From: a virus
Length of the DNA stretch: 57,692 nt
Strand: one strand, 5' to 3'
Virus record (IMG/VR): IMGVR_UViG_3300037755_000365
Coordinates: 1 to 57,692 of that record
In this document: piece by piece, positions 14,800 to 49,077 of the stretch
Layout: each line of letters opens with the position of its first letter
Position numbering within the stretch: the stretch's first letter is position 1
Notes under the pieces: generated by a model
What the model saw: the letters and a program-made list of their open reading frames with translations, nothing else
What the model was told of the DNA's origin: nothing
Database searches by the model: none
Program-made: the position numbers and the translations under genes

Positions 14800-15504
14800 T
14801 CACCACATTGCTTCCACGCGCTTCACCATCAGCGCAAGTTCATCGTTGAATCTGTCGATGCCGTCTCGAAGCTCTGCCAGTTCGTCCTTGACCTTGCTGC
14901 GCACGACGCGGTAGACGAACGGCGGCAAGCCGCGACAATGACTCATGAAGTCCCACCACTCACGCTCGGAGACGAGCAGCGAGCCGATGACCTGCCATCG
15001 GTATTGGCTCGGTAAGGTGCCGGCCTCCAAGTTCTCGATCTGGCGGTGCGGTAGAACGTCCTTGATCTCAAGCCCGCCGTCGTCTCCGATCAGCGAGTCC
15101 GGGGAACAGCCGCAGGTATCGTTGCGGATGAAGGCCACGCGCTCGGGGTCGATTCCGTTAAGCATGGCGTAGAGCGTCCGTGCCGAGTCCTCGTTCTCCT
15201 TGCCGCGCTCCGTGTGCCGATTACCCGCCCACTCCGATTCACCGACCTCGCCAGTGATAATCTCGCCCGCCAGCGTGCGCATGTAGTTCACGCGCATCAC
15301 GTACTCTTTGTGCGATGTGCCTCCACGCGGCCCGGCCTTAGCCATGACCTTGTGGAACTCAGAGCTGGTCGGGATGCCAAGCCGCAGAGCCAGCCATTCA
15401 TCTGAGCCTTGCTCGATGTCGCGGTAGACCTCCACTATTCGGCCTCGGGTGTCTTGCGAGACTTCTTCGATTGTTCGCCCTTGGCGCGGAGCAGCTTCAC
15501 GCAC
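14800..15504 (-). CDS. YqaJ-type (lambda-Exo-like) recombination exonuclease
   Basis: EQGSDEWLALRLGIPTSSEFHKV and GCSPDSL..GGLEIKD; directly downstream of the SSAP gene; true start may be internal (70-nt overlap with erf). Confidence 0.8.
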   Translation of the reverse strand: MREAAPRQGRTIEEVSQDTRGRIVEVYRDIEQGSDEWLALRLGIPTSSEFHKVMAKAGPRGGTSHKEYVMRVNYMRTLAGEIITGEVGESEWAGNRHTERGKENEDSARTLYAMLNGIDPERVAFIRNDTCGCSPDSLIGDDGGLEIKDVLPHRQIENLEAGTLPSQYRWQVIGSLLVSEREWWDFMSHCRGLPPFVYRVVRSKVKDELAELRDGIDRFNDELALMVKRVEAMW

Positions 15505-16139
15505 GTATCGAAAGCGCGCGCAGGAATGTCCTCCAACGTCTCGGCCTTGAGGTACTTGAGAAAGGCTTCCTCGTCGGCCTCGGTCTCGGCGATCTTCTCC
15601 TTGAGCAGCGTTACCTGTTCCGCTGAGACGCGCGGAACGCCGCCGTAGGGCTCGACACGGCTCTCGTCGTCCTCCCCAGTCTCGATGTTGAATACTTTCA
15701 GGATGACGCCTTTGGTAGCGTAGGAAACCGCCTTACCTGGTGCCTTGTCGCCTGAGTCGTTGGCGTGCGACTCGGCGGGCACAACAATCTTGTCGTCTGG
15801 CTGGTCGCAGTTCACGAACTCGATATCGTATTTCGCTTCGTAGCGCCAGATCGGCGTGCCGTGCTTCGTCTCCCCTACTTGCGAGATGGCGCTTGAGATC
15901 AGTTTGGGTACGATCAAGACGCCATGTTCAATCAGGTGATTGCGGACCAAGGCCGTTACGGCGTCGTGCGTCGTGGCTTTGTACGGCTTGCCACCAGTCT
16001 CAACCGTCTTGTCCTTTCGGACGTACCAGACCTTCATGCGGACCTCGTTGACCCGCTGATAGATGTTCAGCGGCACCTTCGGTGGCTCCTGAGTTTCCAG
16101 AGCCGGGATGCGAGGAACTTCGTTCTTGTTAGCGGCCAT
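15435..16139 (-). CDS. erf: ERF-family single-strand annealing protein
   Basis: ATG at 16139 within track ORF 15435..16379; 234 aa; KATTHDAVTALVRNHLIEHGVLIVPK core; paired with exonuclease. Confidence 0.65.
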   Translation of the reverse strand: MAANKNEVPRIPALETQEPPKVPLNIYQRVNEVRMKVWYVRKDKTVETGGKPYKATTHDAVTALVRNHLIEHGVLIVPKLISSAISQVGETKHGTPIWRYEAKYDIEFVNCDQPDDKIVVPAESHANDSGDKAPGKAVSYATKGVILKVFNIETGEDDESRVEPYGGVPRVSAEQVTLLKEKIAETEADEEAFLKYLKAETLEDIPARAFDTCVKLLRAKGEQSKKSRKTPEAE

Positions 16140-16455
16140 ATCCAATCTCCTGCGCCACGTCTCGGGCGCGTTCTCGATCTTCCTCGTAACACAGCCGCGC
16201 GTACTCGAAAGCCTTCTCCACGCCCGACTCGTCGATGACCATGCGCCGAAACAGCAGGCCGACTTCGGCAAGATCGCCGTCGCGCGTGAGAGAGAAAAGC
16301 TCCGATAGCTTTTTCCAGTCCGCCGTAATCTCGCCCGTGTCTGATTGGTGAGCCGTGAAGTACGCAATCGCAAGCTCAAACTGATCGCAGCCCGGTACTT
16401 GGCGCCATCTTGCGTATTGCTCGGCGAGCTGGCGAAGGTGCTTGTCGAAGGTCAT
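16129..16455 (-). CDS. hypothetical protein
   Basis: ATG at 16455 (MTFDKHLRQLAEQ..), ATGA coupling to upstream gene. Confidence 0.5.
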   Translation of the reverse strand: MTFDKHLRQLAEQYARWRQVPGCDQFELAIAYFTAHQSDTGEITADWKKLSELFSLTRDGDLAEVGLLFRRMVIDESGVEKAFEYARLCYEEDRERARDVAQEIGYGR

Positions 16456-34480: not shown

Positions 34481-34509
34481 TTGATACGGTGGCAACATTC
34501 TGAGAGAAT
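34481..34509 (+). promoter_or_regulatory. candidate promoter for the HTH-HNH block
   Basis: TTGATA-17 nt-GAGAAT, 33 nt upstream of ATG 34542. Confidence 0.35.
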
Positions 34510-37083: not shown

Positions 37084-37602
37084 TTGGTTGTCGCGGGCGC
37101 GAAATGCGTCTGGAACGACCTCGCTTTGCTTGGGGTTAGGGGCGGCGAGAACGCCGGCTGGGACGTGATGTGCGTCAACGACATCGTGATGCACTACCCC
37201 GGCAAGGTGAAGCACCTGTATTCGAACGACCACCGGCTGATTCCGCACTGGCTAGGAGCTAGACGGAAGCAGTACGAGCGCGCGTATGGTCCAGTCCAGC
37301 ACGTTCACTCATGCAGGGTCGGCGGTCGGCATAACTGGCCATGGCCTGGGCACGGAACATCTGCTTTAGGCGCCGTGTACACGGGTCTTGCGATGGGCTA
37401 CACGATCGTGATTTGCGGCTGTCCGCTGGACGACAGTCCGAACTACTTTTCGCCCGATTGGGAGCTGCGGAACTTCACGAAAGAAGTTGGCGTGAAGTCT
37501 GACGGCACGATGCAATATTGGGAGGCGGCGAAGCAGAAATGTTTCAGGAATCGCGTGAAAGCGATGAGCGGTCGAACCCGCGCGTTGCTCGGGGCGCCAT
37601 AG
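37084..37602 (+). CDS. Rossmann-like DUF115/MAF (MptE-like) putative transferase (tentative)
   Basis: (FQGKK)LLVVAGAKCVWNDL..WDVMCVND..GTSALGAVYTGLAMGYTIVICGCPLD. Frame is open back to 36952 with no ATG/GTG/TTG; CTG at 37000 preceded by GAGG may be the real start. Confidence 0.55.
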   Translation: MVVAGAKCVWNDLALLGVRGGENAGWDVMCVNDIVMHYPGKVKHLYSNDHRLIPHWLGARRKQYERAYGPVQHVHSCRVGGRHNWPWPGHGTSALGAVYTGLAMGYTIVICGCPLDDSPNYFSPDWELRNFTKEVGVKSDGTMQYWEAAKQKCFRNRVKAMSGRTRALLGAP

Positions 37603-37772
37603 GCTGTCCGTCAGGCAAGCAGGGATACCCGACGACGAAGGCAGCCAGAACGGCGTTGAACCGCTGCATGCGGCGCAAAGGACGACGTAGGCACGAGAGT
37701 TCGTTCTATAGGTGCGAGTGCGGAGACTACCATCTCACGAGCGAGCTTCCGTCCGATACGCGATTCAGGTGA
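37539..37772 (+). CDS. small zinc-binding protein
   Basis: YRCECGDYHLTS motif; overlaps upstream gene by 64 nt. Confidence 0.4.
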   Translation: MFQESRESDERSNPRVARGAIGCPSGKQGYPTTKAARTALNRCMRRKGRRRHESSFYRCECGDYHLTSELPSDTRFR

Positions 37773-38368
37773 AGGTCACGGCCGTGATCCCGGTGGGTCC
37801 GGGTCACAAGCAGTATGCGGAGGATGCGGCAGGGTCCGTCTATCGCGCATGGGCGAATTCTAAAGGGCCGTTCGAAGAACTTAACGTCGTCATTATTGAC
37901 GACACGTTGGGGAAGAGAGGTCGTTCAGCTTCGAGGAATCACGGCATCAGCCGTAATCCTTCGGACTGGTACTTTTTGCTCGACGCAGACGACGAGATGC
38001 TCAGCGACGCTTTTCAAAACGTCGCCATTGAGTCTGCGGCGACGTTTGGTGCGGTGTGTCTCGACGGCGTGATTGCCAAAGAGAACATCTACCCATTGAC
38101 TCGAGAGATGCTGTTCGCTCACGGAGCGAAGGGCACCTTGAGCATGGGCTGCTTCGTGCGAGGTGATGTAGCAAGAGCAACGCCGTTCGATGAGACGTTG
38201 GAAACAGGAGAAGATTTCGATTTCTACATGAGGTTGCCGGATTTCGTGAAGATAGATCGACCGCTGGTGTCGATTGGCTACCGGAAGCCGAGTGCCGGAG
38301 GCCCTAAGGGCTACAAAGACATCAAGTGGAGAGAGATTTGCTGGAGCGTCATTGACCGCTATCGCTGA
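37769..38368 (+). CDS. GT2-family glycosyltransferase
   Basis: GTGA coupling; VTAVIPVGPG..VVIIDDTLGKRGRSASRN..LLDADDEM. Confidence 0.75.
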   Translation: MKVTAVIPVGPGHKQYAEDAAGSVYRAWANSKGPFEELNVVIIDDTLGKRGRSASRNHGISRNPSDWYFLLDADDEMLSDAFQNVAIESAATFGAVCLDGVIAKENIYPLTREMLFAHGAKGTLSMGCFVRGDVARATPFDETLETGEDFDFYMRLPDFVKIDRPLVSIGYRKPSAGGPKGYKDIKWREICWSVIDRYR

Positions 38369-38828
38369 GCACACGCTGCCGGCTCCACGATCTCTGATTC
38401 ATTGCCAAACAGTTCTCGATATCGGTGCCGGTATCCGGCCGATGCGGTGGTACGTGCCAGAAAGGCACATTTGCGCCGATCCACACGAGCCGTATGTAGA
38501 AGTCTTGAGGCAGTTTGGATACGAGGCGCATCACAAGAACGCGATCGAAGCATTGAGCCTTATTGAGGCCGAGGCGATCTATTTTCTCGACGTGATCGAG
38601 CACATGGACAGGGATCTTGGAACGCGGGTCATCGAGCTCGCGTTGTCAAAACCGCACAAGCAGATCGTGATTTACACACCGATCGGATTCGTCGAGCAGC
38701 GTGAAGATTGCTGGGGGCTCGGCGGGGAGTATTGGCAGACGCATCGGTCTGGATGGATGCCCGCGGATTTCCCAGGCTGGACGATAGAGACATTCAAGCG
38801 GGAAGGATTTTTCGCCATACATGAGTAA
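38352..38828 (+). CDS. class I SAM-dependent methyltransferase
   Basis: Motif I VLDIGAGIRP; YFLDVIEHM; TTG start at 38352 assumed (track ORF opens at 38274). Confidence 0.65.
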   Translation: MTAIAEHTLPAPRSLIHCQTVLDIGAGIRPMRWYVPERHICADPHEPYVEVLRQFGYEAHHKNAIEALSLIEAEAIYFLDVIEHMDRDLGTRVIELALSKPHKQIVIYTPIGFVEQREDCWGLGGEYWQTHRSGWMPADFPGWTIETFKREGFFAIHE

Positions 38829-39867
38829 GTACAGCCAGCTCAAGCCCGCGTTCCATTTGGACCGGATTGTGCAGCTTCGCCAAGGTAAGAATCCGGTTCC
38901 CGTTCACGTGCAACTGATTTTGAGCGACCTGTGCCAGCAGTCGTGCAGTTGGTGCGCATACCGCATGGACACTGGACTTTCTACTGAATTGTTTTGGACG
39001 GAGACGACGCACAACCCGAATCGAAAGATCGAGACATCGAAGGCGCGCGAGATTCTTGACGATTGCGCTTCGATGGGGGTCAAAGCGATTCAATTCACTG
39101 GAGGTGGAGAGCCTACTGTTCATCCAGAACATCGTGAATTATTCGCATACGCTCAGGACTTAGGGCTTGATACGAGCCTGGTCACGAACGGCGTTCGGTT
39201 GGATGTCGAGAGTGACAGCACCCTTCGGATGAAGTGGATTCGCGTCAGCATCGATGCGGGACGCGAGGAAACCTATTGCAAGATTCGCAACGTCAACGCG
39301 ACGCATTGGCGGAAGGCGTGGGCAAACGTCGAGCGATTGGCGAAGCGCTTCGAGGGTGCGCTCGGGGTCGGGTTTGTCGTAGCGCCGGAGAGCTTCAAAG
39401 AGATTGGCGAATGCGCTTCAAGGTGCAAATATGCCGGCGTTTCTAACATGCGAGTCGGGGCCGTGTTTTCAGAGCAAGGAATCGGCTTCTACGGAGGCTT
39501 GATTCCCGAGATCGTCGAGGCGATCAACGAGGCTAAGGCAAAATACGACGGCGACGGGTTCGAGATCATCGACCTGTTCGGGAGACGGCTCGGAGATTTG
39601 GAAAACGGTAGCCCGACCGATCCATTCTGCGGCTACCAGCACATGACGATGTACATCGGTGGAGATTTGAACGTCTACCGATGTTGCAACACGTCTTACA
39701 CGAAGGCTGGTTTGCTCGGGAGCCTCAAGGAGACGAGCCTCAAAGAGCTGTTCGGAACGCTCGACTACTCGTTCGATGCAAGGCAGTGTCGCTACTGCCA
39801 GTTTCTCGGACAAAACGAAGCGATTTCCGCGCTGATTAAAGAGCCAGAGCACGTAAATTTCGTATGA
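38821..39867 (+). CDS. radical SAM enzyme with C-terminal auxiliary Cys cluster
   Basis: C38-x3-C42-x2-C45 (CQQSCSWCAY), FTGGGEPTV, C-terminal FCGYQ..YRCCNTS..CRYCQF. Confidence 0.85.
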   Translation: MSKYSQLKPAFHLDRIVQLRQGKNPVPVHVQLILSDLCQQSCSWCAYRMDTGLSTELFWTETTHNPNRKIETSKAREILDDCASMGVKAIQFTGGGEPTVHPEHRELFAYAQDLGLDTSLVTNGVRLDVESDSTLRMKWIRVSIDAGREETYCKIRNVNATHWRKAWANVERLAKRFEGALGVGFVVAPESFKEIGECASRCKYAGVSNMRVGAVFSEQGIGFYGGLIPEIVEAINEAKAKYDGDGFEIIDLFGRRLGDLENGSPTDPFCGYQHMTMYIGGDLNVYRCCNTSYTKAGLLGSLKETSLKELFGTLDYSFDARQCRYCQFLGQNEAISALIKEPEHVNFV

Positions 39868-40391
39868 CCACGGCGCAATTCGCATCGATGTCCGACGTGG
39901 ATGCGGACAACTTCATGCCTATTTCCGAGGTTCAGCCGGTCAGAACCTTGCTCGCGAGAATGGTCGGGCATGGAACGGTGGTCGATATCGGTTGCGGCAA
40001 GGGCGACGAAGTGTCTGACCTATTCGACCCTGAAAAGTATCTCGGAATCGATTGCTCGGAGGCGTTGATACGAATAGCAAGGCACCGAAACCCTGGATTC
40101 AGATTCGAAACGATCCAGGGCCTGGATCTGAACGGTCACTGGGACTACGGGATCATCAAGGCTGTCCTGGAGCACGTGCCGCCTGACGAGGCAGTCGCGA
40201 TTTACGAGAACGCGAGGCGCGTATGCGACGTGCTGCTGGTTGCCTGGCACACGGAACCTGGGAGAGAAAATCTCGCCTGGTACGACGGGGAGATAGGGAG
40301 GATGCAGCAGAACCGTCACGACCGATCAAAGTTTTCAGGGATAGAGCATCGTGAAGTGTGCGGGAAGCATGTGGTCTGGACGGTTATTTGA
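39864..40391 (+). CDS. class I SAM-dependent methyltransferase
   Basis: VVDIGCGKGDEV..LGIDCSEALI..IKAVLEHVPPDEA; ATGA coupling. Confidence 0.75.
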   Translation: MTTAQFASMSDVDADNFMPISEVQPVRTLLARMVGHGTVVDIGCGKGDEVSDLFDPEKYLGIDCSEALIRIARHRNPGFRFETIQGLDLNGHWDYGIIKAVLEHVPPDEAVAIYENARRVCDVLLVAWHTEPGRENLAWYDGEIGRMQQNRHDRSKFSGIEHREVCGKHVVWTVI

Positions 40392-40959
40392 GGATTTCTT
40401 CCCTGTCTCGGATTCGATTGCACTCGTCACTACGGGTAAGAAGCTAGACGCGCTTGATCGAATAGAGACGGTCGGCTACTCCGTTCGCGGCAGTAAGGTC
40501 GAGATCGGGGAACGTCTTGCTGTTCTAACGCATGGGACCGGTTTGAGGCTTGGTGGTTTGTTTAACGGTCGGCTCGTGTACTCGGAGATAGGGAAAGGAA
40601 TTGTTGGCGAACCCAACAACGCGCCGGCTAGTGCGCATCAACCGTTCGTAAAGGACGGCTCTGTTTATTACACGGACGGTTGGCCGCAAGTTCGCATCTA
40701 CAGAAACGGCGAAGTGTTCTTGGATCACTTCAACGACATGGAGCAAGTCGGTAATCCGTGTTGGGTTGGCGATTCGATGTATTTCGAGGCGCGTGCCGAC
40801 GACGACCCGAGAAGACCCGATCTTTGGGAGATTTGGCGCTATGACGGGAATCTCGATTTCGTGTGCATGGGAGCAAACCCGTCCTATTGGAACGGTAGGC
40901 TTTTTGTAGGCGAATGGAATGGGCGAAATTTCGACTACCGATGCGCAACGATTGATTGA
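40369..40959 (+). CDS. beta-propeller-like hypothetical protein
   Basis: Repetitive beta-rich sequence (YFEARADDDPRRPDLWEIWRYDG); start ATG 40369 or GTG 40351. Confidence 0.5.
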   Translation: MWSGRLFEDFFPVSDSIALVTTGKKLDALDRIETVGYSVRGSKVEIGERLAVLTHGTGLRLGGLFNGRLVYSEIGKGIVGEPNNAPASAHQPFVKDGSVYYTDGWPQVRIYRNGEVFLDHFNDMEQVGNPCWVGDSMYFEARADDDPRRPDLWEIWRYDGNLDFVCMGANPSYWNGRLFVGEWNGRNFDYRCATID

Positions 40960-41509
40960 TGCGAAGGCTTACCCGCCGACGCATACTTACGATCTAGCGA
41001 CGCTCATTCCCAGATACCCGTTGAATCATCGGCTCTCGATTCTGTTGCGGGTTTGCCCGGATATGTTCAAGGCAAATCGGTTTCTGGACGTCGGGTGCTC
41101 GAAAGGGTTCTTTGCGCTCAAGGCGGCGAAAGAAAGCAGTTCTGTTCTTGCCATAGATCCAGACGAGGAAGCGCTCAAGTCTTGGGAAAGCGTTTGTCCA
41201 AAGAACGTGACGCAGAAAGTTGGCACGTTCAAAGACGTGTCTGGCGAGTTCGACATGGTGTGGATCGGCAACGGCCACCACTACCTATACAGAGAAGACC
41301 GGAATTACGTCGATCGCCTCAAGCGAATCGCAACCGATAGGGTGCTGATCGAGGGGCCGACTGGGCCGAAGCGCTTTGAGATGCGGAATTTCGGGCCGCA
41401 CCAAACCGAGGTGGAATTGTTGGAATCGATGCAGGACTTCTATCTTGTGAGGCGGGCAGAGTCAGAAACGAAAGGCAGGGCTGTTTGGCTGTTCAAGACG
41501 CGCTCGTGA
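40919..41509 (+). CDS. class I SAM-dependent methyltransferase
   Basis: FLDVGCSKGFFAL..VLAIDPDEEAL..FDMVWIGNGHHY. Confidence 0.7.
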   Translation: MGEISTTDAQRLIDAKAYPPTHTYDLATLIPRYPLNHRLSILLRVCPDMFKANRFLDVGCSKGFFALKAAKESSSVLAIDPDEEALKSWESVCPKNVTQKVGTFKDVSGEFDMVWIGNGHHYLYREDRNYVDRLKRIATDRVLIEGPTGPKRFEMRNFGPHQTEVELLESMQDFYLVRRAESETKGRAVWLFKTRS

Positions 41510-41988
41510 CGTTGCCGCACAACCGTTACGGAGAATATTTGGAGCACGTGTATACGAAGATGGCCGTTCATGTTCCACCAGACTCGACGGTGCTCGAGAT
41601 CGGGGCTCGTCATGATCGTGGCGTGATCTCCAAGCGCGTGATCCCGCACAAGACGTTTTTGACCGTGGACAGGAATTCTCGGAGAGGTGACATGACGGCC
41701 GACGTGCTGTACGAGGAAATGCAAGCCGGCGTGATTCTATCGACGTGCATTTTGCACCATACGCCGGAGAGCTTGATTCCTAAACTGCTGGATAACCTCG
41801 TGGCTCCGCTGCTGATGTTCTCTGGGCCGAACGTTGAGGCCATGCCGAAGTTGTTTGGTGACCATCGGTGGCACATCGAGATACCGAAATTCGTGGGATG
41901 GCTGGAAGAGCGAGGCTACACAGTCACGTGGGAGCGCGTAGGGCTGTCTGAGCCGCTTTGCGAAGTGCTGGTGCTAGCCAAGAGATGA
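41506..41988 (+). CDS. methyltransferase-fold protein (divergent)
   Basis: GTGA coupling; VLEIGARHD..FLTVDRN..ILSTCILHHTPE. Confidence 0.5.
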   Translation: MTLPHNRYGEYLEHVYTKMAVHVPPDSTVLEIGARHDRGVISKRVIPHKTFLTVDRNSRRGDMTADVLYEEMQAGVILSTCILHHTPESLIPKLLDNLVAPLLMFSGPNVEAMPKLFGDHRWHIEIPKFVGWLEERGYTVTWERVGLSEPLCEVLVLAKR

Positions 41989-42662
41989 TCTCGGTCGTCA
42001 TGCCGTTCTGGTGCCGTCAGGAGGCGCTGGACAGGGCATTTGCTATCTACGGCGAGCTATACAGAGATTTGCCGATCGAGTTCTCGGTCTGCGACGACGG
42101 CTCGGACCCGCAAGTCTCGATGGCTAAGGCCAGTCATCCGTTTACGGTGACGCTGTTGCCGAAAAAGGCTAGAGCATTGAATCCGTGCGTGCCGATCAAT
42201 CGCGCGGTGGAGGCTTCTACCGGCGACGTGATCGTGCTGACGAATCCAGAGATCGTTCACACGGAACGGACGCTCGAAAAGATGCTCGAGCTCCTGACTG
42301 GCGATGACGATTACGTGATGGCGTCGTGTCTCGACTCGTCCGGGCAATGGCTTGCGGGGTCAAAGGTGCGATACGACCAGAACGGGAGGCTCCCCGTTCC
42401 AGATGGGGGTCATTTCCATTTCTGCTCGATGTTCCATCGGTCGCTGTGGGAGAAGGCTGGCGGATTCGACGAGGACTATCGAAATGGCCAGGCGTGCGAC
42501 GACAACGACTGGCTGTGGAGGCTTCATAGAGCCGGAGCGGTATTCAAGCTCTGCGAGAGCGTGGTGACGCACTACCGCTCTCAACTGAAATGGAACTTGC
42601 CGCACAACAGAGAGCTTTTCATGGCGAAGTGGGGATTGAATGGGCGCCAAGCCACGGCTTAG
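41985..42662 (+). CDS. GT2-family glycosyltransferase
   Basis: ATGA coupling; MISVVMPFW..FSVCDDGSDP..GDVIVLTNPEIVH. Confidence 0.75.
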   Translation: MISVVMPFWCRQEALDRAFAIYGELYRDLPIEFSVCDDGSDPQVSMAKASHPFTVTLLPKKARALNPCVPINRAVEASTGDVIVLTNPEIVHTERTLEKMLELLTGDDDYVMASCLDSSGQWLAGSKVRYDQNGRLPVPDGGHFHFCSMFHRSLWEKAGGFDEDYRNGQACDDNDWLWRLHRAGAVFKLCESVVTHYRSQLKWNLPHNRELFMAKWGLNGRQATA

Positions 42663-42933
42663 GTGGACGGGTGAGTCTTGGCATGGACTCGCACCCGTAA
42701 AGAACCATTCGTCTTACAAATCTCCTGAAACGCTCGCTGCCGAAGTGTCTCGGATGATTATTGAGAACGGATTGACCGATGTCGTGATGATCGGTCAGGC
42801 ACCGGGACGCGACGGGGCAGCCAAGTGTTATCGCTGGATGACGAGCGGCACGCTGCTTTGGTACGTGGAGCTGCTGAGATTCAACGCGGTTCACGGACGA
42901 TTTCCCTACGAAAGCAACGGCGGCCCGATCTGA
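42640..42933 (+). CDS. hypothetical protein
   Basis: 97-aa ORF abutting next start. Confidence 0.45.
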   Translation: MGAKPRLRWTGESWHGLAPVKNHSSYKSPETLAAEVSRMIIENGLTDVVMIGQAPGRDGAAKCYRWMTSGTLLWYVELLRFNAVHGRFPYESNGGPI

Positions 42934-43530
42934 GTGCTGATCGGGACAACGTGGTGGACAGGGCCTGGAAGCATCTACGGTCCTGAGTATCCCCGTGCTC
43001 TGAGAAGTCAGTTATCTGATCTAGGCCAGGATCTGATCGTTCTTGGGAACGGCGACGGATCGGATCGGCCGCTCAAGACTGGATTCACTCGCTGGTGGTC
43101 GAAACTGGAATGGCTGGCACCGTGGAACGCGGATATTCGCCCAGCTCTAGTGGTTGATCTAGACACGTTCGTCGTCGGAGGAATCGGCCCGGTTCTTTCC
43201 CTGGACGACACGAAGCTATGGCTGATCCGTCAGTTTTGGGGAACGAAACGACTCGGTGAGTCCGGGCTGTTCATCGTGCCGAAAGACACGGGCGCGATGT
43301 GGGAAGCCGCATTGAGGTACAGCCAAGACAAATACGGAGACGGAGCCTTTCTGCGGAAGTTTCCGCATGAATTCATCGTGGACGAGGTAGACGGCATTTT
43401 GAGCTACAAAGCGCATCACTTGCAGGACGGATACCCGGATGGCACGAGGATCGTTTGCTTTCACGGGAAGCCGAAGCCGGCAAATGCTTGTGGCTGGGCG
43501 CAAGAGTTCTTTTGGCGACACGCATGCTGA
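42934..43530 (+). CDS. GT8-like nucleotide-diphospho-sugar transferase (phage type)
   Basis: GTG start; WWSKLEWLAPW..ALVVDLDTFVVG..RIVCFHGKPKP. Confidence 0.6.
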   Translation: MLIGTTWWTGPGSIYGPEYPRALRSQLSDLGQDLIVLGNGDGSDRPLKTGFTRWWSKLEWLAPWNADIRPALVVDLDTFVVGGIGPVLSLDDTKLWLIRQFWGTKRLGESGLFIVPKDTGAMWEAALRYSQDKYGDGAFLRKFPHEFIVDEVDGILSYKAHHLQDGYPDGTRIVCFHGKPKPANACGWAQEFFWRHAC

Positions 43531-44993
43531 CTGATCCTACCGATTTCTCCGACGAAGAGTTGCTTGCGGCGCTATCGAAAATCGCCGAGGAAAACAAGCT
43601 GCTCGAATGGTTCGACGAGAAATTTCCCTATCGCTGGCAGCGCGCGTTCTTCGATGCGGGGGAATGGGCGAAGCAAAGGTGCGTAATTGCCGCGAATGGC
43701 GTTGGTAAGAGCTTTTTGACTTGCGCAGAGCTGGCCATGCACGTCACGGGCCGTTACCCGCCTTGGTGGAAGGGCGCGAGATTCGACTACGGCGGATGGG
43801 AATGTTGGATCGGTAGCATCGACAACGATATGCAAAAAAGAGGCCCTCAACGCGCATTGTTGGGCCGAGAACTCGAATCTGTCGGCACTGCATTGATCCC
43901 GAAGGATTCGATCAAGAGCATCGAGCTTCGCCAGGCCGGCGTTAAGTCGGTTGTCGATACGTTGGTCATCAATCACATTTCCGGTCGTCCAGTGACCGTT
44001 AAATGGCTCACGTTTGAACAGGGCTGGAGGAAATGGCAATCCGGCGACCCGAAAATCATCTTGTGGGATGAAGAGCCTGACGAATCGATCGTGGATCAGA
44101 AGGACATCATGACCGAGACACTGACTCGGCTGGTGCGTAACAACGGCATTTGGATCGTCGGCTATACGCCGTTGCTAGGTGAGACCAATCTGACCAAGCA
44201 CTTCATGGATGCCAACAAGGACGATGGCATTTTCTACGTCGGAGCCACATGGGATGACGCTCCGCACATGGACGCCGAGCAAAGACGCATCATTGAGAGC
44301 CAGTACCCGGCCCACCAAAGGGATGCCCGCACGAAGGGCATCCCGATGCTCGGCACGGGCCGCATCTTCACCGTTGGCGATTCGGACATCCTGATCGACC
44401 CGATTCACATACCGGATCACTGGGCAAGGATCTGCGGAATAGATTTCGGCATGGCGCATCCGTGTGCTGCGGCGTGGGTGGCGTGGGATCGTGACACCGG
44501 CTATTTCTACCTGTACGACTGCTGGAAGAAAGAGAGCGCCAAGACCTACGAGCATGCGCAGGTCATCAATTCACGGGGGAAGTGGATACCCGTTGCATGG
44601 CCCCACGACGGCGAGAAGCGAGACCCGAAGAGCGGCCAACGATTCGCAGACATTTATCGTGGCGAGCACGAGGTCAACATGCTTTCGAAGTCAGCGAGGT
44701 ACAAGAACGACACCGGTGGTTCTCAGGCTCAATGGCCGATCATCGAGGAAATTCGATTGCTCATGGAGTCGGGGAAATTCAAGGTGTTTCGCACGTGTAC
44801 GGACTGGGTGACGGAATTTCACAGCTATCACACCAAGGACGGAAAGATCGTGTCCCGGCGCGATGACGTTCTCAAGGCAAGCTTCTACGCGAAGATGATG
44901 GTGCGGTATGCCGTCAGCAAGAAGGAAGGCGACCGCATCCTTAGGCTGGAGCAACGCTCTGCGCCGGCAGCATTTACCACGGCAGTTCACTGA
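43524..44993 (+). CDS. terL: terminase large subunit
   Basis: ATG at 43524; Walker A AANGVGKS; C-terminal nuclease-like region; followed by portal. Confidence 0.85.
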   Translation: MLTDPTDFSDEELLAALSKIAEENKLLEWFDEKFPYRWQRAFFDAGEWAKQRCVIAANGVGKSFLTCAELAMHVTGRYPPWWKGARFDYGGWECWIGSIDNDMQKRGPQRALLGRELESVGTALIPKDSIKSIELRQAGVKSVVDTLVINHISGRPVTVKWLTFEQGWRKWQSGDPKIILWDEEPDESIVDQKDIMTETLTRLVRNNGIWIVGYTPLLGETNLTKHFMDANKDDGIFYVGATWDDAPHMDAEQRRIIESQYPAHQRDARTKGIPMLGTGRIFTVGDSDILIDPIHIPDHWARICGIDFGMAHPCAAAWVAWDRDTGYFYLYDCWKKESAKTYEHAQVINSRGKWIPVAWPHDGEKRDPKSGQRFADIYRGEHEVNMLSKSARYKNDTGGSQAQWPIIEEIRLLMESGKFKVFRTCTDWVTEFHSYHTKDGKIVSRRDDVLKASFYAKMMVRYAVSKKEGDRILRLEQRSAPAAFTTAVH

Positions 44994-45349
44994 TGAAGAA
45001 ACCACCGCTGAATACGCACTGGTTTGAGAAGTGGGCGGCTAAGAACTGCATGAGGCCCGTGTGCAAGGTATCCGACCCAGACGGAGAGATCCTGCTGGCA
45101 GACTCAATCGAGCCGATTAGGGTGTTGGGCAAGTACCGTACTGGATACGCCATTCTTCGAGACGACCTTAAGTTCGGCAACTACAACGACTACGACATGC
45201 AGGAGTTTGTTCTCTACTCGCGTGAGGGTGGGGTACAGAAGCGAGTGAACGAGGCACTGACCTACGCGAGAGCGATGCAATCGGAATTGAAGCAATCAGG
45301 ATTTTATGATGGCGAAGCAAAAGGCCGTTTCAGTCAGCGCCAGAATTGA
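44993..45349 (+). CDS. hypothetical protein
   Basis: 118-aa ORF between terL and portal. Confidence 0.5.
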   Translation: MKKPPLNTHWFEKWAAKNCMRPVCKVSDPDGEILLADSIEPIRVLGKYRTGYAILRDDLKFGNYNDYDMQEFVLYSREGGVQKRVNEALTYARAMQSELKQSGFYDGEAKGRFSQRQN

Positions 45350-47174
45350 GCCAGGCGATCTCCCGCGGATAGCGGAATCGATCGTTGCTGAGTTCAAGGC
45401 GCGTAAGGAGCGGAGAAAGACGCTCGAAAAGCATTGGGACGAGATCGATCGCCAGCTTCGCATGGAGCCTGAGCTTTCTCATAAGAAGCTCGCAAACGGG
45501 CAATTAGACCCTGACAGGGCATGGATGCCGGAAGTAGAGCTACCGCTGCAGGCTCAAACGCTCGAGATGCTGACTTCTGACGTTAGGAGACTCAAGTTTC
45601 CGAACAACCGAGATTTTTTCCAGGCGAGAGCCGCGCTGACCGATGAATATTTGAAGCGGTTCAATTCTGCCGGATCGGTGTTTCCTGGCGAGAAGGGGAA
45701 AGGCGATCCGAATGCGGTGATGAACCAGGACAACGCCGACAAGCTCGTCCAGGCCACGATTTCTCACTGGCACGCTCAATACGACTTCCGCGGCCACATG
45801 GACCAAATAGATGCGCAAGCGTTGAGCTACGGGTTCGGAGTCGGGAGGCTTCGCAAGGTCAATCGTCGAATTCTAGGCCATGACTCTAGATTGACCGGAT
45901 TCGAGAATCAGCGCATTCCCGTATTGATTCCGCGTGATGCTCGTAAGGTGTATCTCGACGACAGCCTGCACGCATTGATGCACGAAGGCTATGCGCTGGG
46001 GCCGAACATCATCCAAACCAGGACGATGCAATACGCCGATCTCGTCGCTGCGGCCAAGGCGGGGGGAAGCGATCCGAAAGACGAGGAAGGCGGGTACGTT
46101 CAGTCGGAAATCGCCAAGATCCAGCCGAACAAGGACGGGACCATCGAGCTCGTCGAGCTGGAAGGCGATTTGGTCGTCGATCGATCGGCCGATACCGTGA
46201 TCGAGCAGGACGTGGTGGTCACTGTTGCGTTCGGATCTGGGGTGCCGGCTTTCGTGCGCTACCGAGAAGGCGAGAAGTTTTCGACCTACTACATCCAGAG
46301 CTATCACCTGGAAGGGTCTGCATATCGTTACGGGGCGTCCCCGTTGCTCAAGGGCATGCCGGTAGCAAAAGCCGCAGCACAAGCAATGAATCGGGTCATC
46401 GAGTCAGGGCTACTCAAGAATTCGCCCCCGGTCGGATGGGACAAGAACGACATGGCGCTGGCGGCGATTGGCGGTCCGAAGATTCGTCCCTACGCGCTCT
46501 GGGGAACGTCCGATCCTGCGGCTATTACGGCGTTCAATGAGGTAGGCGGCGATCCTCAGACCCTATGGACCATATTCACCGGGCTCGTGAACCTTTACGT
46601 GGACGTGACGGGCGTGAATCCGCCTAGGCTCGGCGCGCAAACGAAGAGCCACACGACCGCGTTTGCGAAAGACGCCGAATTGTCTCAAGGCGCCATTCGC
46701 ACCGTCGATTTCGTTCGGTCGAGTCTCGAGGGGCCGATGACGAGGCTCTTGCAGCTCGAATACCGAATGGGTCTCCCGCTGATGCGCGGACGGCAGACGA
46801 TTTACGTCGAGGCGTGGAACGAGTTCGTATCGTTGAAACGCAATCACTTGCCGGACATCGTGAAGTTCACAGCCATTGGGGCCGGTGCTCCTGCGGAAGA
46901 GCAGGCGATGTACGCCAAGAAGCTTTCTTCTGCGCAGACGGCGCTGCAGATCGACTCTCTCGCGATCCAGTTGGGCCGCGAGCCGAAGATCGAGCATGGA
47001 ACCTTGATCGAGCAACTTCTAAGCGAGGGTGGTTGGACGAATGTCACAGACATCATTGTCCCCAGAGCAGACAGCGTTGCTCCGGGATTTGAGCCGGAAT
47101 CCGACCTGGGCATCGGTACTGGAGTACCTGGAATCGTCTCTCAGCGAAACGCCGCGCTGGAAGCGGTCGGATAA
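45306..47174 (+). CDS. portal protein
   Basis: 622 aa, position after terL and before scaffold/capsid. Confidence 0.75.
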   Translation: MMAKQKAVSVSARIEPGDLPRIAESIVAEFKARKERRKTLEKHWDEIDRQLRMEPELSHKKLANGQLDPDRAWMPEVELPLQAQTLEMLTSDVRRLKFPNNRDFFQARAALTDEYLKRFNSAGSVFPGEKGKGDPNAVMNQDNADKLVQATISHWHAQYDFRGHMDQIDAQALSYGFGVGRLRKVNRRILGHDSRLTGFENQRIPVLIPRDARKVYLDDSLHALMHEGYALGPNIIQTRTMQYADLVAAAKAGGSDPKDEEGGYVQSEIAKIQPNKDGTIELVELEGDLVVDRSADTVIEQDVVVTVAFGSGVPAFVRYREGEKFSTYYIQSYHLEGSAYRYGASPLLKGMPVAKAAAQAMNRVIESGLLKNSPPVGWDKNDMALAAIGGPKIRPYALWGTSDPAAITAFNEVGGDPQTLWTIFTGLVNLYVDVTGVNPPRLGAQTKSHTTAFAKDAELSQGAIRTVDFVRSSLEGPMTRLLQLEYRMGLPLMRGRQTIYVEAWNEFVSLKRNHLPDIVKFTAIGAGAPAEEQAMYAKKLSSAQTALQIDSLAIQLGREPKIEHGTLIEQLLSEGGWTNVTDIIVPRADSVAPGFEPESDLGIGTGVPGIVSQRNAALEAVG

Positions 47175-47938: not shown

Positions 47939-49024
47939 ATGGCACTTACCATTTCGGCAACCGATGTAGAGTTGCCCAAGCCGCTAAACGCGGTTTTTCA
48001 ACAGACCTTGCTTCGCAACGCTCAGATTCGCGCGCCGTATTTCGTCGGCACCGTTTCTGGAGAACTGGTCAAGCAAAAGGGTGCGAGCCTGGCTGCATGG
48101 CGGCGTATCGAGAATCTCGCCGTAGCGACTTCCGCTCTGTCCGAGCTGACCACGACAGCCAGCTACATGCAAGGCCGAAGTTCCGCGGCGCTCTCGGTGA
48201 CTCCGGTCACGGCCACGATGTCGAAGTACGGAAACTTCGTCATCCTGAACGAGGAAGTGGACCTGTTCAACTTCCCCGAGCAGTTCGACAAGATCCTGCG
48301 CATCATGGCGATCAACGCCGGGCAAAGCCTGAACCAGCTTCAACGAGATGTTGGAGAGGACAATGCTACGTTGATCTATGCGGGTTCTGCAGCGTCGGAC
48401 GGAACTGTATTGAGCGTCATCACGCTCGACTCGATCAAGCTCGCAGTCAACACGCTAGACCGGAATTCGGCCATGACTTTCACGGCCATGACGACGGGCT
48501 CGCAGAACGTCGGCACGGTGCCGATCAACATGGCCTACTGGGGCTTGACGCATCCCGACGTTGCGGTGGACATCGCTGGTCTCACCGGCTTCACTTCGGT
48601 CGAGAAGTACGCGGGTCAGACGCAAGTCGCGATGGGCGAGTTCGGCACGATCACGGTGGCCGGCAAGGCGGTGCGGTTCATCTCGTCAGAAGATGCCGGC
48701 GTCGATGCAGGCTCAGGCGAGACGGGGGCTGGGTCCGCGGACCTGAACGACACGTCTGACAACGCGGATCTCTACACCACGCTGATCTACGGCGAGGAAG
48801 CGATCGGCTCCGTGGGTCTCGGCGAGCAGTGGACTGATGGCATTTATCGTGCGGGCGAAGAGCTCGATCCGGTCGATGTCATCATCAAGCGCCCCCAGGG
48901 TACCGGCACGTCCGATCCGTACAACGAAATCTCGACGGTCGCGTGGAAGGCGTGGCACACGGGTGCGATTCTGAACGCGAACTGGGTCCGAGGCATTCGT
49001 TCGGGTGCGACCGACCTCACGTAA
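47939..49024 (+). CDS. major capsid protein (HK97-fold type)
   Basis: 361 aa, position, followed by strong terminator. Confidence 0.8.
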   Translation: MALTISATDVELPKPLNAVFQQTLLRNAQIRAPYFVGTVSGELVKQKGASLAAWRRIENLAVATSALSELTTTASYMQGRSSAALSVTPVTATMSKYGNFVILNEEVDLFNFPEQFDKILRIMAINAGQSLNQLQRDVGEDNATLIYAGSAASDGTVLSVITLDSIKLAVNTLDRNSAMTFTAMTTGSQNVGTVPINMAYWGLTHPDVAVDIAGLTGFTSVEKYAGQTQVAMGEFGTITVAGKAVRFISSEDAGVDAGSGETGAGSADLNDTSDNADLYTTLIYGEEAIGSVGLGEQWTDGIYRAGEELDPVDVIIKRPQGTGTSDPYNEISTVAWKAWHTGAILNANWVRGIRSGATDLT

Positions 49025-49048
49025 GACGCAGCCAATGCGGCAACTTTA

Positions 49049-49077
49049 GAAGCCCCGCTGGTCGGGGCTTCTTTTTT
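49049..49077 (+). terminator. rho-independent terminator after capsid gene
   Basis: GAAGCCCCG-ctggt-CGGGGCTTC followed by TTTTTT. Confidence 0.85.

What the first reader, a model, noticed from the sequence alone, without database searches (positions are those of the whole stretch)
38821..39867. Phage radical SAM enzyme with an auxiliary Cys cluster inside a sugar-transferase operon
The 348-aa ORF has the canonical C-x3-C-x2-C motif (C38, C42, C45: CQQSCSWCAY; nt 38932..38955) and a GGE-type SAM motif (FTGGGEPTV). It also has a second C-terminal Cys group (FCGYQ...YRCCNTS...CRYCQF) reminiscent of SPASM/twitch auxiliary clusters. These clusters occur in sugar-acting (BtrN-like) and peptide-modifying rSAM enzymes. 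No obvious short precursor-peptide ORF sits beside it. Its neighbours are methyltransferases and glycosyltransferases, which favours a carbohydrate substrate. It does not look like QueE/7-deazaguanine or viperin context.
Basis: partly seen in the sequence, partly recalled or inferred. Interest (0 to 1): 0.6.

Follow-up and report, generated by a model that had tools for sequence, protein, structure and literature searches.

The report
Phage-only twitch radical SAM sugar-tailoring enzyme
This temperate phage carries an intact radical SAM enzyme with a second iron-sulfur site. It belongs to an unstudied, almost purely viral family that nearly always sits beside a glycosyltransferase and often next to head genes, so it most likely tailors a sugar for a phage-made glycan; the reaction and the target are untested.

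Summary
Window 38821-39867(+) encodes a 348-aa radical SAM (rSAM) protein with C38/C42/C45, a GGGE motif and five C-terminal cysteines (C270, C288, C289, C323, C326). All are 97-100% conserved in 99 representatives down to about 33% identity.

A confident AlphaFold model places those cysteines around a beta-hairpin plus helices, the twitch layout. Its best structural matches tie: SkfB (Z 23.9), DesII (23.7) and BlsE (23.0). No curated family cut-off is reached, including viperin, MoaA, BlsE and SkfB. A PADLOC pVip hit matches only the generic core.

The family is large and essentially viral, with no close relative in 50,697 GenBank phage records. A GT2 glycosyltransferase lies within 5 kb in 70 of 95 loci and abuts the rSAM gene in 35. 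A small methyltransferase abuts it in about 24 loci and is fused to it in one homolog. No precursor peptide is conserved, and hm-pyrimidine DNA-modification genes are rare.

Best reading (about 0.55): an oxygen-independent sugar-tailoring enzyme in a soluble glycan cassette co-oriented with the head genes, probably decorating the virion.

This scan has flagged similar cassettes in at least 20 other genomes. I class it as a new variant of a known kind.

The parts
38821..39867 (+). Radical SAM enzyme gene (P0001, 348 aa): partial TIM-barrel core plus a C-terminal twitch-type domain
   Evidence: ORF and translation. Pfam PF04055 at 60.5 bits. AlphaFold2 model built on a 36-sequence alignment, mean pLDDT 87.8. 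Fold matches SkfB, DesII and BlsE at Z 23-24.
38932..38955 (+). CX3CX2C motif (C38, C42, C45), ligands of the SAM-binding [4Fe-4S] cluster
   Evidence: Read directly from the sequence. Invariant in A1 and 97-98% conserved in 99 representatives, the rest being gaps. Inteins in homologs use C42 or C45 as the +1 residue.
39094..39120 (+). FTGGGEPTV: GGE-type SAM-binding motif (residues 92-100)
   Evidence: G94, G95, G96 and E97 are 98-100% conserved. The motif aligns with the GGEP motif of BlsE. T93 is an intein insertion point in homologs.
39628..39798 (+). Twitch-type auxiliary-cluster region: C270, a beta-hairpin (residues 276-286), C288-C289, a helix, then C323-x2-C326
   Evidence: C270, C288, C323 and C326 are 100% conserved and C289 98%. 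The hairpin E276-279/E284-286 and helices H307-311 and H329-339 appear in the model. The SkfB profile alignment places C270 and C288 on SkfB cysteines flanking its hairpin. Pfam SPASM PF13186 is detected in homolog P0221 at the equivalent place.
38352..38828 (+). 'X' small divergent class I methyltransferase-like protein (ORF open from 38274; motif VLDIGAGIRP). It is translationally coupled to the rSAM gene.
   Evidence: There are no Pfam, NCBIfam or PHROG hits. It is homologous to the N-terminal methyltransferase domain fused to the rSAM in P0221. Family members abut the rSAM gene in about 24 loci. The overlap with the rSAM start is 8 nt.
39864..40391 (+). SAM-dependent methyltransferase (175 aa), starting in an ATGA overlap with the rSAM stop
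   Evidence: Pfam Methyltransf_25/12/23/11. Recruited by the iterated X-family profile. Overlap seen in the sequence.
40369..40959 (+). Unknown 196-aa protein, possibly a partial beta-propeller
   Evidence: No family hits. ESM Atlas structure neighbours are PD40, Kelch and GH43-type propellers at TM 0.6-0.73, which is a lead only.
40919..41509 (+). SAM-dependent methyltransferase (196 aa)
   Evidence: Pfam Methyltransf_25/11/12. Weak NCBIfam matches, including the MftM oligosaccharide methyltransferase, are far below cut-off.
41506..41988 (+). Unknown 160-aa protein with a Rossmann/methyltransferase-like motif (VLEIGA)
   Evidence: Motif seen in the translation. No family hits. The assignment is an inference.
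41985..42662 (+). GT2 glycosyltransferase, the family-wide partner of the rSAM (cluster c1)
   Evidence: Pfam Glycos_transf_2, E 4.5e-8. The c1 profile lies within 5 kb of the rSAM in 70 of 95 loci and abuts it in 35. No transmembrane-like segment.
42934..43530 (+). Second conserved glycosyltransferase (cluster c2), overlapping the terL start
   Evidence: phrog_1962 glycosyltransferase, E 2.9e-15. The c2 profile lies within 5 kb of the rSAM in 25 of 95 loci.
37769..38368 (+). GT2-like glycosyltransferase (cluster c14; ORF open from 37712)
   Evidence: Pfam Glycos_transf_2 at 24 bits against a cut-off of 23.3. Homologs lie beside the rSAM in L015, L023, L037, L038 and L073.
37084..37602 (+). 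Unknown 172-aa protein at the head of the cassette
   Evidence: No family hits. A homolog sits upstream of X and the rSAM in L008. ESM Atlas neighbours are viral hypothetical proteins.
42640..42933 (+). Unknown 97-aa ORF between the two glycosyltransferases
   Evidence: ORF list. No family hits. No homolog in the related loci.
43524..44993 (+). Terminase large subunit, directly downstream and overlapping the cassette. Portal (45306-47174) and major capsid protein (47939-49024) follow.
   Evidence: PHROG terminase, portal/adaptor and major head hits. The only strong terminator-like site on this strand is at 49048-49072, after the capsid gene.

Best explanation
P0001 is a two-cluster, twitch-type radical SAM enzyme that tailors a sugar in a phage-encoded glycan pathway.

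Shown:
- An intact SAM-cluster site (C38/C42/C45, GGGE, R141-x-S143-x-D145).
- A C-terminal beta-hairpin-plus-helices domain carrying five universally conserved cysteines.
- Membership of a large, almost exclusively viral family whose constant neighbour is a soluble GT2 glycosyltransferase.
- A frequent abutting, and once fused, partner that is a small SAM methyltransferase.
- All cassette proteins of this phage lack membrane-like segments, and the cassette runs without a terminator-like site into terL, portal and capsid genes.

Inferred mechanism:
1. The reduced SAM cluster cleaves SAM to the 5'-deoxyadenosyl radical.
2. That radical abstracts a hydrogen from a sugar carbon, either of a host NDP-sugar or of a sugar already transferred by the GT2.
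3. The substrate radical is resolved by one-electron transfer to the auxiliary [4Fe-4S] cluster (C270, one of C288/C289, C323, C326), giving a keto-sugar. Alternatively, the spare cysteine of the CC pair returns a hydrogen to give an epimer.
4. The flanking methyltransferases methylate the product, and the glycosyltransferases build it into a methylated glycan.

The most likely acceptor is a virion protein, because of the position in the late head operon and the soluble enzymes. That step is the least certain.
For: Enzyme:
- Pfam PF04055 hit and the motifs.
- Cysteine conservation.
- AlphaFold2 model at pLDDT 87.8 with a hairpin flanked by C270 and C288/289.
- Top folds tie: SkfB (twitch), DesII and BlsE (both sugar-acting) at Z 23-24, in both the Foldseek-seeded search and the independent search of 48,161 chains.
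- BlsE is the best PDB sequence and profile match, at E 3e-13.
- SPASM PF13186 is detected in homolog P0221.

Context:
- A GT2 lies within 5 kb in 70 of 95 loci and abuts the rSAM in 35.
- An X-type methyltransferase abuts it in about 24 loci and is fused N-terminally in P0221.
- An NDP-sugar 4,6-dehydratase/epimerase is present in 8 loci.
- Other glycosyltransferase families and a B12-rSAM also occur in the cassettes.
- Head or packaging genes lie within 5 kb in at least 21 of 95 loci.
- In GenBank podovirus MW202801 the same type of cassette follows the capsid gene.
- No transmembrane-like segment occurs in any cassette protein.
- The only strong terminator-like site is after the capsid gene.
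- The phage carries a separate membrane O-acyltransferase as its seroconversion-type gene.
Against: - No activity, cofactor content or substrate has been measured for any family member.
- SkfB, a peptide maturase, ties for best fold. Fold similarity within the SPASM/twitch group does not fix the substrate.
- BtrN and SpeY, the textbook twitch sugar dehydrogenases, are only Z 14-15 and Z 10.
- I could not obtain model coordinates, so the five cysteines were not shown to converge in space.
- This window's cassette has no recognisable NDP-sugar biosynthesis gene.
- The acceptor (virion protein, DNA, or something else) is untested.
- No cultured phage carries a close homolog, so no virion chemistry is available.
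Confidence: 0.55

Rival explanations
1. The enzyme modifies a protein or peptide, for example a virion protein, by thioether cross-linking, epimerisation or C-H functionalisation, like the SPASM/twitch RiPP maturases. The glycosyltransferases and methyltransferases then act on the same protein.
For: SkfB is nominally the top fold match (Z 23.9). SuiB, CteB, PqqE and ChlB follow at Z 18-21. The SkfB profile alignment covers the twitch hairpin. The gene sits among head genes.
Against: The protein has only about 25 residues before the core, so no recognition (RRE/PqqD-like) domain, and Pfam finds none. No small ORF is conserved beside the gene in 95 loci, and the window's genes overlap, leaving no room for one. 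Partner genes are glycosyltransferases, methyltransferases and an NDP-sugar dehydratase, not proteases or transporters. SkfB NCBIfam scores 36 bits against a cut-off of 300.
Confidence: 0.13
2. The cassette hypermodifies phage DNA or a nucleotide. The rSAM enzyme acts on a nucleotide, as viperin does, or on a base or sugar destined for DNA glycosylation, and so protects the genome from host nucleases.
For: PADLOC pVip models hit the core at E 3.8e-16. The NEB preprint reports GT-A glycosyltransferases for DNA glycans near terminase genes, and 'annotated viperins' in such pathways (10.1101/2023.12.21.572611, section 9). The phage has a C5 DNA methyltransferase at 13294-14139. BlsE acts on a nucleoside sugar (PMC3715490).
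Against: NCBIfam viperin scores 57 bits against a cut-off of 180, and the hit covers only the generic core. Viperin folds score Z 17-18, well below the top tie. Among 32 long viral records with the family, thymidylate-synthase-type hydroxymethylases occur in 2, Tet_JBP in 0 (that search had no positive control), and C5 methyltransferases in 4. The window has no ThyA or Tet_JBP hit, and its C5 methyltransferase lies 24 kb away on the other strand.
Confidence: 0.13
3. The cassette remodels a host cell-surface glycan (serotype conversion or superinfection exclusion) or makes a soluble glycoside. The rSAM enzyme tailors the sugar, but the product is not on the virion.
For: Glycosyltransferases near radical SAM cassettes in pelagimyophage variable regions have been read as O-antigen modifiers (PMC7029224). 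The phage is temperate, with an integrase at 11393-12493.
Against: All cassette proteins lack membrane-like segments, unlike Gtr- or Oac-type converters. The cassette is co-oriented with terL-portal-capsid and abuts terL, rather than forming a separately expressed moron. The phage already carries a membrane Acyl_transf_3 gene on the opposite strand near the genome end.
Confidence: 0.17

Closest known systems
DesII (TDP-4-amino-4,6-dideoxy-D-glucose deaminase/dehydrogenase; PDB 8HZV/8HZY)
   Same: Top-tier fold match: Z 23.7, 323 residues aligned, covering residues 3-348. Same partial-barrel core and same C-terminal beta-hairpin-plus-helices domain (PMC11434129). It acts on an NDP-sugar in a pathway that ends at a glycosyltransferase (general knowledge).
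   Different: About 17% identity. DesII has an extra N-terminal six-helix domain and binds a single cluster. The phage enzyme lacks that domain and has five invariant C-terminal cysteines.
BlsE (cytosylglucuronate decarboxylase, blasticidin S pathway; PDB 7VOB)
   Same: Best sequence match in the PDB, at E 1.4e-7 for the single sequence and 3e-13 for the profile. Fold Z 23.0 over 293 residues. It is a sugar-ring radical enzyme working next to a glycosyltransferase step (PMC3715490).
   Different: About 20% identity. TIGR04466 scores 36 bits against a cut-off of 400. The sequence alignment stops before the cysteine-rich C-terminus. BlsE's proposed second-cluster motif is CxCxxC, not C-x17-CC-x33-C-x2-C.
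BtrN / SpeY / anSME (twitch and SPASM dehydrogenases)
   Same: An auxiliary cluster held by a cysteine before and a cysteine after a beta-hairpin, plus a downstream CxxC. The spacing here, C-x17-C...C-x2-C, is the layout I recall for BtrN (memory, not tested). The proposed role as electron acceptor for oxidation of the substrate radical comes from these enzymes (general knowledge).
   Different: Much weaker fold scores: anSME Z 17.4, BtrN Z 14-15, SpeY Z 10.1. No sequence-level hit. There is an extra invariant cysteine, forming a CC pair.
SkfB (sporulation killing factor maturase; PDB 6EFN)
   Same: Nominal top fold, Z 23.9 over 283 residues. The profile alignment spans the core and the twitch hairpin.
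   Different: SkfB has a peptide-recognition N-terminal region and an adjacent precursor gene (general knowledge). The phage enzyme has neither. TIGR04403 scores 36 bits against a cut-off of 300.
Mycobacteriophage virion glycosylation (Che8, Corndog, Myrna; Freeman et al. 2023, cited through PMC12363180)
   Same: Phage-encoded glycosyltransferases that decorate capsid and tail-tube proteins. This is the only experimentally shown phage system resembling the proposed end use.
   Different: No radical SAM partner was found for those systems in the texts I could read; the original paper is not held. The window's GT2 has no tblastn match in 50,697 phage records. The hosts and phage lineages are unrelated.
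Phage DNA glycan hypermodification pathways (C5-MT/5mYOX or ThyS plus GT; bioRxiv 10.1101/2023.12.21.572611)
   Same: GT-A-type viral glycosylation clusters, sometimes near terminase and with extra sugar-modifying genes and 'viperin' labels.
   Different: The defining hm-pyrimidine-forming enzymes are absent here and rare in related records. That text does not mention radical SAM.

Membership tests
Radical SAM superfamily (PF04055) | CX3CX2C cluster motif and a score above the Pfam gathering threshold | tested here: met
   C38-x3-C42-x2-C45. 60.5 bits against a cut-off of 29.5. The motif is 97-98% conserved in 99 representatives.
Radical SAM superfamily (PF04055) | SAM-binding GGE and ribose motifs | tested here: met
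   G94-G95-G96-E97 and R141-x-S143-x-D145 are 95-100% conserved. They align to the GGEP region of BlsE.
Twitch/SPASM subclass | C-terminal beta-hairpin flanked by cysteines plus a downstream CxxC, giving one auxiliary cluster (twitch) rather than two (SPASM) | tested here: met
   Layout: C270, hairpin 276-286, C288/C289, then C323-x2-C326. All are 98-100% conserved. Only five cysteines are present, too few for two clusters.
Twitch/SPASM subclass | Match to the Pfam SPASM model PF13186 | tested here: inconclusive
   No hit in P0001 at E <= 0.01. Homolog P0221 does hit at E 1.3e-7 in the equivalent region.
Twitch/SPASM subclass | Actual binding of a second Fe-S cluster | not testable with these tools
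   This needs Fe/S analysis, EPR or Mossbauer spectroscopy, or a structure.
BlsE (TIGR04466) | Score at or above the curated equivalog cut-off | tested here: not met
   36.1 bits against a cut-off of 400.
DesII | N-terminal six-helix domain and a single-cluster architecture | tested here: not met
   The model aligns to DesII only from chain residue ~103-107 onward. The phage protein has about 25 residues before the core. The extra conserved cysteines contrast with the single cluster of DesII.
Viperin / pVip (NF038283; PADLOC pVip) | Score at or above the curated cut-off and a viperin-type C-terminal domain | tested here: not met
   57 bits against a cut-off of 180, matching residues 33-161 only. 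The PADLOC hit covers profile positions 4-145 of 257. The C-terminus is a cysteine-rich twitch domain. Viperin folds score Z 17-18 against 23-24 for the top tie.
   MoaA TIGR02666 scores 36.5 bits against 284, and the archaeal model 36.9 against 325. QueE and NrdG are not among the 25 NCBIfam families listed out of 35 that matched. Folds: MoaA Z 18-19, QueE Z 11.5, PFL-activase Z 13.4.
RiPP maturase (SkfB TIGR04403, sactipeptide-type) | Curated cut-off reached, a peptide-recognition domain, and an adjacent precursor peptide gene | tested here: not met
   36 bits against a cut-off of 300. No N-terminal domain. No conserved small ORF in 95 loci. The flanking genes overlap the rSAM gene.
N_Twi_rSAM (NF033640) | Score at or above the subfamily cut-off | tested here: not met
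   50.7 bits against a cut-off of 170.
Phage virion-glycosylation cassette | Phage-encoded glycosyltransferases expressed with structural genes | tested here: met
   Three glycosyltransferase genes lie on the same strand and abut terL. No strong terminator-like site occurs before the end of the capsid gene. Co-expression itself is inferred.
Phage virion-glycosylation cassette | A glycan attached to a virion protein | not testable with these tools
   The phage is uncultured. This needs mass spectrometry or glycan staining of virions or of co-expressed proteins.
hm-pyrimidine DNA glycosylation pathway | A hydroxymethylase (ThyA-like) or a 5mC/T dioxygenase in the genome | tested here: inconclusive
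   ThyA family: none in the window and 2 of 32 related records. Tet_JBP: none, but that search had no positive control, so absence is not shown.

The most novel reading that the evidence does not exclude
The rSAM-GT2 pair is the conserved core of a phage-exclusive, oxygen-independent glycan-tailoring module. The radical enzyme creates a sugar the host does not make (a keto, epimerised or deoxy sugar, then methylated), and the module installs it on the capsid or another virion protein of uncultured, non-actinobacterial phages. That would be the first radical chemistry in virion glycosylation. A rarer variant, which I put at roughly 0.05-0.1 and which is also not excluded, has the same pair glycosylating DNA without any hydroxymethyl-pyrimidine precursor enzyme.
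Probability: 0.35. Interest if true: 0.75.

Novelty: new variant of a known kind. Interest (0 to 1): 0.55.

Why it matters
Virion glycosylation has been shown experimentally only in a few mycobacteriophages, where it blunts antibody recognition. Sugar-acting radical SAM enzymes are known almost only from antibiotic pathways.

This family has 234 clusters at 50% identity with E <= 1e-30. It is nearly confined to viruses, tightly paired with a GT2, and conserved enough to host homing inteins at three catalytic-motif sites. If it tailors a virion glycan, radical sugar chemistry would be a widespread and so far unnoticed part of how environmental phages dress their particles. That could bear on host recognition, particle stability and evasion of host or predator recognition. 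It would also supply new enzymes for anaerobic sugar modification.

There is a practical point too. Defence-system annotators label this family 'viperin' (PADLOC pVip, 57 bits), which is very probably wrong and may contaminate surveys.

Tried and rejected
- **Single-sequence AlphaFold2** gave pLDDT 35 and was discarded.
Context came from the search for related loci instead.
- **Cultured relatives.** Megablast of the 8-kb island against GenBank phages found nothing. tblastn of the rSAM found only 5 records at <= 29% identity. tblastn of the GT2 found nothing. BFVD holds only distant rSAM proteins, at <= 19% identity.
- **Informative fusions among longer homologs.** All 11 are intein carriers. 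The one useful fusion, P0221 (methyltransferase plus rSAM), came from the representative search.
- **DNA hm-pyrimidine route.** ThyA, Tet_JBP and C5 methyltransferase are absent or rare. I rejected this as the general partner, not as impossible.
- **Precursor-peptide search.** No small ORF family was seen in more than 3 closely related loci.
- **Viperin reading.** The PADLOC pVip hit was rejected as a generic core match.
- **Unknown ORFs.** Pfam at E <= 5 on the five unknown window ORFs found nothing. ESM Atlas gave only weak leads for two of them.
- **Is window 37084-37602 a Maf/CstII-like c5 protein?** The c5 profile does not hit the window at E <= 10.
- **Literature.** Searches for a described phage rSAM-glycan system found nothing. 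Freeman et al. 2023 is not held.
- **Cysteine geometry.** I could not measure Cys-Cys distances because model coordinates are not exposed.
Full report
**Observation.** Window 38821-39867(+) is an uninterrupted 348-codon ORF. Pfam finds only Radical_SAM (E 2.9e-16, 60.5 bits against a cut-off of 29.5). It is the only such gene in the genome. The window is a complete 57.7-kb IMG/VR virus record with direct terminal repeats. It encodes a T7-type primase-helicase, terminase, portal and capsid, and also an integrase, so the phage is temperate.

**Family.**
- The word-indexed search returned 1115 homologs at E <= 0.001. The best 120 are 53-75% identical and come almost entirely from metagenomes. The only names given by sources are generic ones ('MoaA/NifB/PqqE/SkfB family radical SAM enzyme', 'radical SAM protein').
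- The exhaustive search of 50%-identity representatives found 234 clusters at E <= 1e-30.
- A motif-seeded scan of IMG/VR confirmed 99 viral loci. A similarly motif-seeded scan (QFTGGGE(P) plus a second conserved motif) of one genome for each of 185,579 prokaryote species gave only 13 loci, nearly all MAG contigs. One of them duplicates an IMG/VR provirus, with a capsid gene 2 kb away.
- GenBank phages hold nothing closer than 29% identity, and BFVD nothing closer than 19%.
- The family is therefore large, essentially viral and uncultured.

**Conservation.** In 36 close homologs all eight cysteines are invariant. In 99 full-length representatives down to about 33% identity:
- C38/C42/C45 are 97-98% conserved, the rest being gaps.
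- C270, C288, C323 and C326 are 100% conserved, and C289 is 98%.
- G94-G96, E97, R141, S143, D145, R48, R211, N123, Y286 and N332 are at least 94% conserved.

**Structure.**
- AlphaFold2 on the 36-sequence alignment gave pLDDT 87.8 and pTM 0.88. The single-sequence run failed.
- The model shows the partial barrel, then a hairpin (276-279/284-286) with C270 before it and C288-C289 after it, then helices with C323-x2-C326 in front of the last one. This is the twitch layout.
- Foldseek ranks DesII and BlsE first.
- VIA-align gives SkfB Z 23.9, DesII 23.7 and BlsE 23.0, which is a tie. Then come SuiB 20.7, PqqE 19.8, MoaA 19.2, viperins 17-18, anSME 17.4 and BtrN 15.0.
- The search of 48,161 chains that does not depend on Foldseek reproduces this order. 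It adds QueE 11.5, AprD4 10.4 and SpeY 10.1.
- By sequence, BlsE is the best solved relative (E 1.4e-7 for the single sequence, 3e-13 for the profile). The SkfB alignment runs through the hairpin and pairs C270 and C288 with SkfB cysteines.
- Every NCBIfam match is far below its cut-off: viperin 57/180, W-cofactor maturase 56/380, N_Twi 51/170, MoaA 36/284, SkfB 36/300, BlsE 36/400.
- PADLOC's pVip model hits at 57 bits, but only over the generic core. This probably explains the 'annotated viperins' reported in viral glycosyltransferase clusters (10.1101/2023.12.21.572611).

**Context in this phage.** From 37084 to 43530 the plus strand carries, with overlapping or abutting stops and starts:
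1. An unknown ORF (37084-37602).
2. A weak GT2 (37769-38368).
3. The small protein 'X' (38352-38828, motif VLDIGAGIRP).
4. The rSAM gene.
5. A methyltransferase (39864-40391).
6. An unknown ORF that may be propeller-like (40369-40959).
7. A methyltransferase (40919-41509).
8. A Rossmann-like unknown (41506-41988).
9. A GT2 (41985-42662).
10. A 97-aa ORF (42640-42933).
11. A PHROG glycosyltransferase (42934-43530), which overlaps terL.

X ends 8 nt inside the rSAM gene, and the next methyltransferase starts in an ATGA overlap. None of these proteins has a membrane-like segment; the maximum 19-residue hydropathy is 1.7. The only strong terminator-like hairpin on this strand between 31 and 50 kb follows the capsid gene at 49048-49072. 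A promoter-like site lies at 34481-34509. Co-transcription with the head genes is therefore plausible but inferred.

**Context across the family.** I called ORFs in 95 loci, clustered them and built profiles.
- The GT2 family of 41985-42662 lies within 5 kb of the rSAM in 70 of 95 loci and abuts it in 35.
- The c2 glycosyltransferase is within 5 kb in 25 loci.
- Other glycosyltransferase-like families (c3, c4, c6, c8, c14) are within 5 kb in 7-20 loci each.
- A Methyltransf_24 protein is within 5 kb in 16 loci, a B12-binding rSAM in 8, and an NDP-sugar 4,6-dehydratase/epimerase in 8.
- A CstII/Maf-like transferase family is within 5 kb in 17 loci.
- X-type methyltransferases occur in 34 loci and abut the rSAM on one side or the other in about 24.
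- In homolog P0221 the same methyltransferase type is fused to the N-terminus of the rSAM, and that protein also matches Pfam SPASM.
- The closest relatives that share terL and portal (L008, L036) have the minimal order: X (or an unknown ORF), rSAM, GT2 (or an unclustered ORF), c2 glycosyltransferase, terL. This window has two methyltransferases and two unknown ORFs inserted.
- Using only ten head-gene profiles, 33 loci contain a terminase, portal, protease or capsid gene, 21 of them within 5 kb.
- GenBank podovirus MW202801 has a distant homolog right after its capsid gene, followed by a glycosyltransferase, a PhyH dioxygenase, a methyltransferase, a NodB-like deacetylase and another glycosyltransferase.

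**Tests of the rival readings.**
- *Peptide maturase.* There is no recognition domain. No small ORF is conserved beside the gene, and there is no intergenic room in the window.
- *DNA hypermodification.* The window has a C5 methyltransferase 24 kb away on the other strand, but no ThyA or Tet_JBP match. Among 32 long related records, ThyA occurs in 2, Tet_JBP in 0 (no positive control) and C5 methyltransferase in 4.
- *Host-surface conversion.* The cassette enzymes are soluble and sit in the head operon. The phage has a separate membrane Acyl_transf_3 gene at 2644-3738(-), of the O-antigen acetylase type.

None of these rivals is excluded outright.

**Interpretation.** It is shown that this is an intact radical SAM enzyme with a conserved twitch-type cysteine set, in a viral family whose constant partners are a GT2 and small methyltransferases. 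Its closest solved relatives are the sugar enzymes DesII and BlsE, tied with SkfB.

The rest is inferred. SAM-derived 5'-deoxyadenosyl radical abstracts a sugar hydrogen. The auxiliary cluster takes the electron to give a keto-sugar, or the spare cysteine of the invariant CC pair returns a hydrogen to give an epimer. These roles are established for BtrN/anSME-type and NeoN/HygY-type enzymes, which I cite from general knowledge. The neighbouring methyltransferases and glycosyltransferases then complete a methylated glycan. The acceptor is most likely a virion protein, by analogy with mycobacteriophage capsid and tail-tube glycosylation (Freeman et al. 2023, cited via PMC12363180), but this is the weakest link.

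**Novelty.**
- Full-text searches found no paper describing a phage radical SAM enzyme in a glycan cassette.
- Pelagimyophage work mentions 'radical SAM cassettes' in variable regions rich in glycosyltransferases, without analysing them (PMC7029224).
- A cyanophage paper files a similar gene under 'antibiotic synthesis' (PMC12801897).
- Earlier notes of this scan report comparable rSAM/glycosyltransferase/methyltransferase cassettes beside head genes in at least 20 other genomes. I treated those as leads, and they agree with what I measured here.
- I class this as a new variant of a known kind: a twitch rSAM sugar-tailoring enzyme recruited into a phage glycosylation cassette.

Noticed in passing
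homologs P0067, P0124-P0127, P0131, P0132, P0138, P0139, P0150, P0161, P0166, P0168, P0174, P0175, P0177-P0179, P0181, P0188-P0190, P0230, P0270-P0275: About 15% of the family's 50%-identity representatives (23 of 150) carry inteins with Hint, Intein_splicing or LAGLIDADG domains. There are three insertion sites, all inside catalytic motifs: before C42, before C45 (the radical SAM cysteines serve as the +1 nucleophile) and before T93 of FTGGGE. Some proteins carry two inteins. The window's copy has none.
   Followed up: partly
window 2644-3738 (-) and 11393-12493 (-): A membrane Acyl_transf_3 O-acyltransferase (PF01757, E 2.8e-25), of the O-antigen acetylase type, and a tyrosine integrase (PF00589). 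The phage is therefore temperate and has a separate candidate serotype-conversion gene, unrelated to the soluble cassette.
   Followed up: no
window 13294-14139 (-): A short C5 cytosine DNA methyltransferase-like gene (PF00145, N-terminal part only, 26 bits). It lies in the early minus-strand arm next to YqaJ exonuclease and ERF recombinase genes (14800-16379).
   Followed up: no
related loci, e.g. L037:6376-7050, L002:5373-6164, L058:8689-9312: A ~220-aa family (cluster c5) is present in 20 of 95 loci, often directly after the capsid gene. It matches PF01973 (MptE/Maf-like) weakly in 7 of 9 members, and its profile hits Campylobacter CstII sialyltransferase at E 0.002. This is a candidate CMP-sugar (nonulosonic acid or Kdo type) transferase. 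It is absent from this window.
   Followed up: partly
related loci, e.g. L019:5755-7086, L045, L046, L071, L074, L076, L078: A B12-binding radical SAM protein (PF02310 plus PF04055, cluster c11) lies within 5 kb of the twitch rSAM in 8 loci and abuts it in 3. Some cassettes therefore carry two different radical enzymes.
   Followed up: no
P0001 against PADLOC: The PADLOC pVip (prokaryotic viperin) models hit this non-viperin family at E 3.8e-16. Automated defence annotation of viral contigs would mislabel it.
   Followed up: yes
window 49048-49072 (+) and 34481-34509 (+): A 10-bp GC-rich hairpin followed by a T-run sits right after the major capsid gene. A lone sigma-70-like promoter match lies in the ORF-free gap at 34.0-34.5 kb. 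Together they would bracket one long transcription unit covering the HTH/HNH genes, the glycan cassette, terL, portal and capsid.
   Followed up: no
L027:11451-11663, L028:11153-11362, L041:1478-1690: A ~70-aa zinc-ribbon ORF with a CxxC...CxxC pattern follows the rSAM gene in three closely related loci. It is not conserved elsewhere in the family.
   Followed up: no
window 40369-40959 (+): An unknown 196-aa cassette protein. Its ESM Atlas model resembles part of a beta-propeller (PD40, Kelch or GH43-like neighbours, TM 0.6-0.73). It has no homolog in the 95 related loci.
   Followed up: partly
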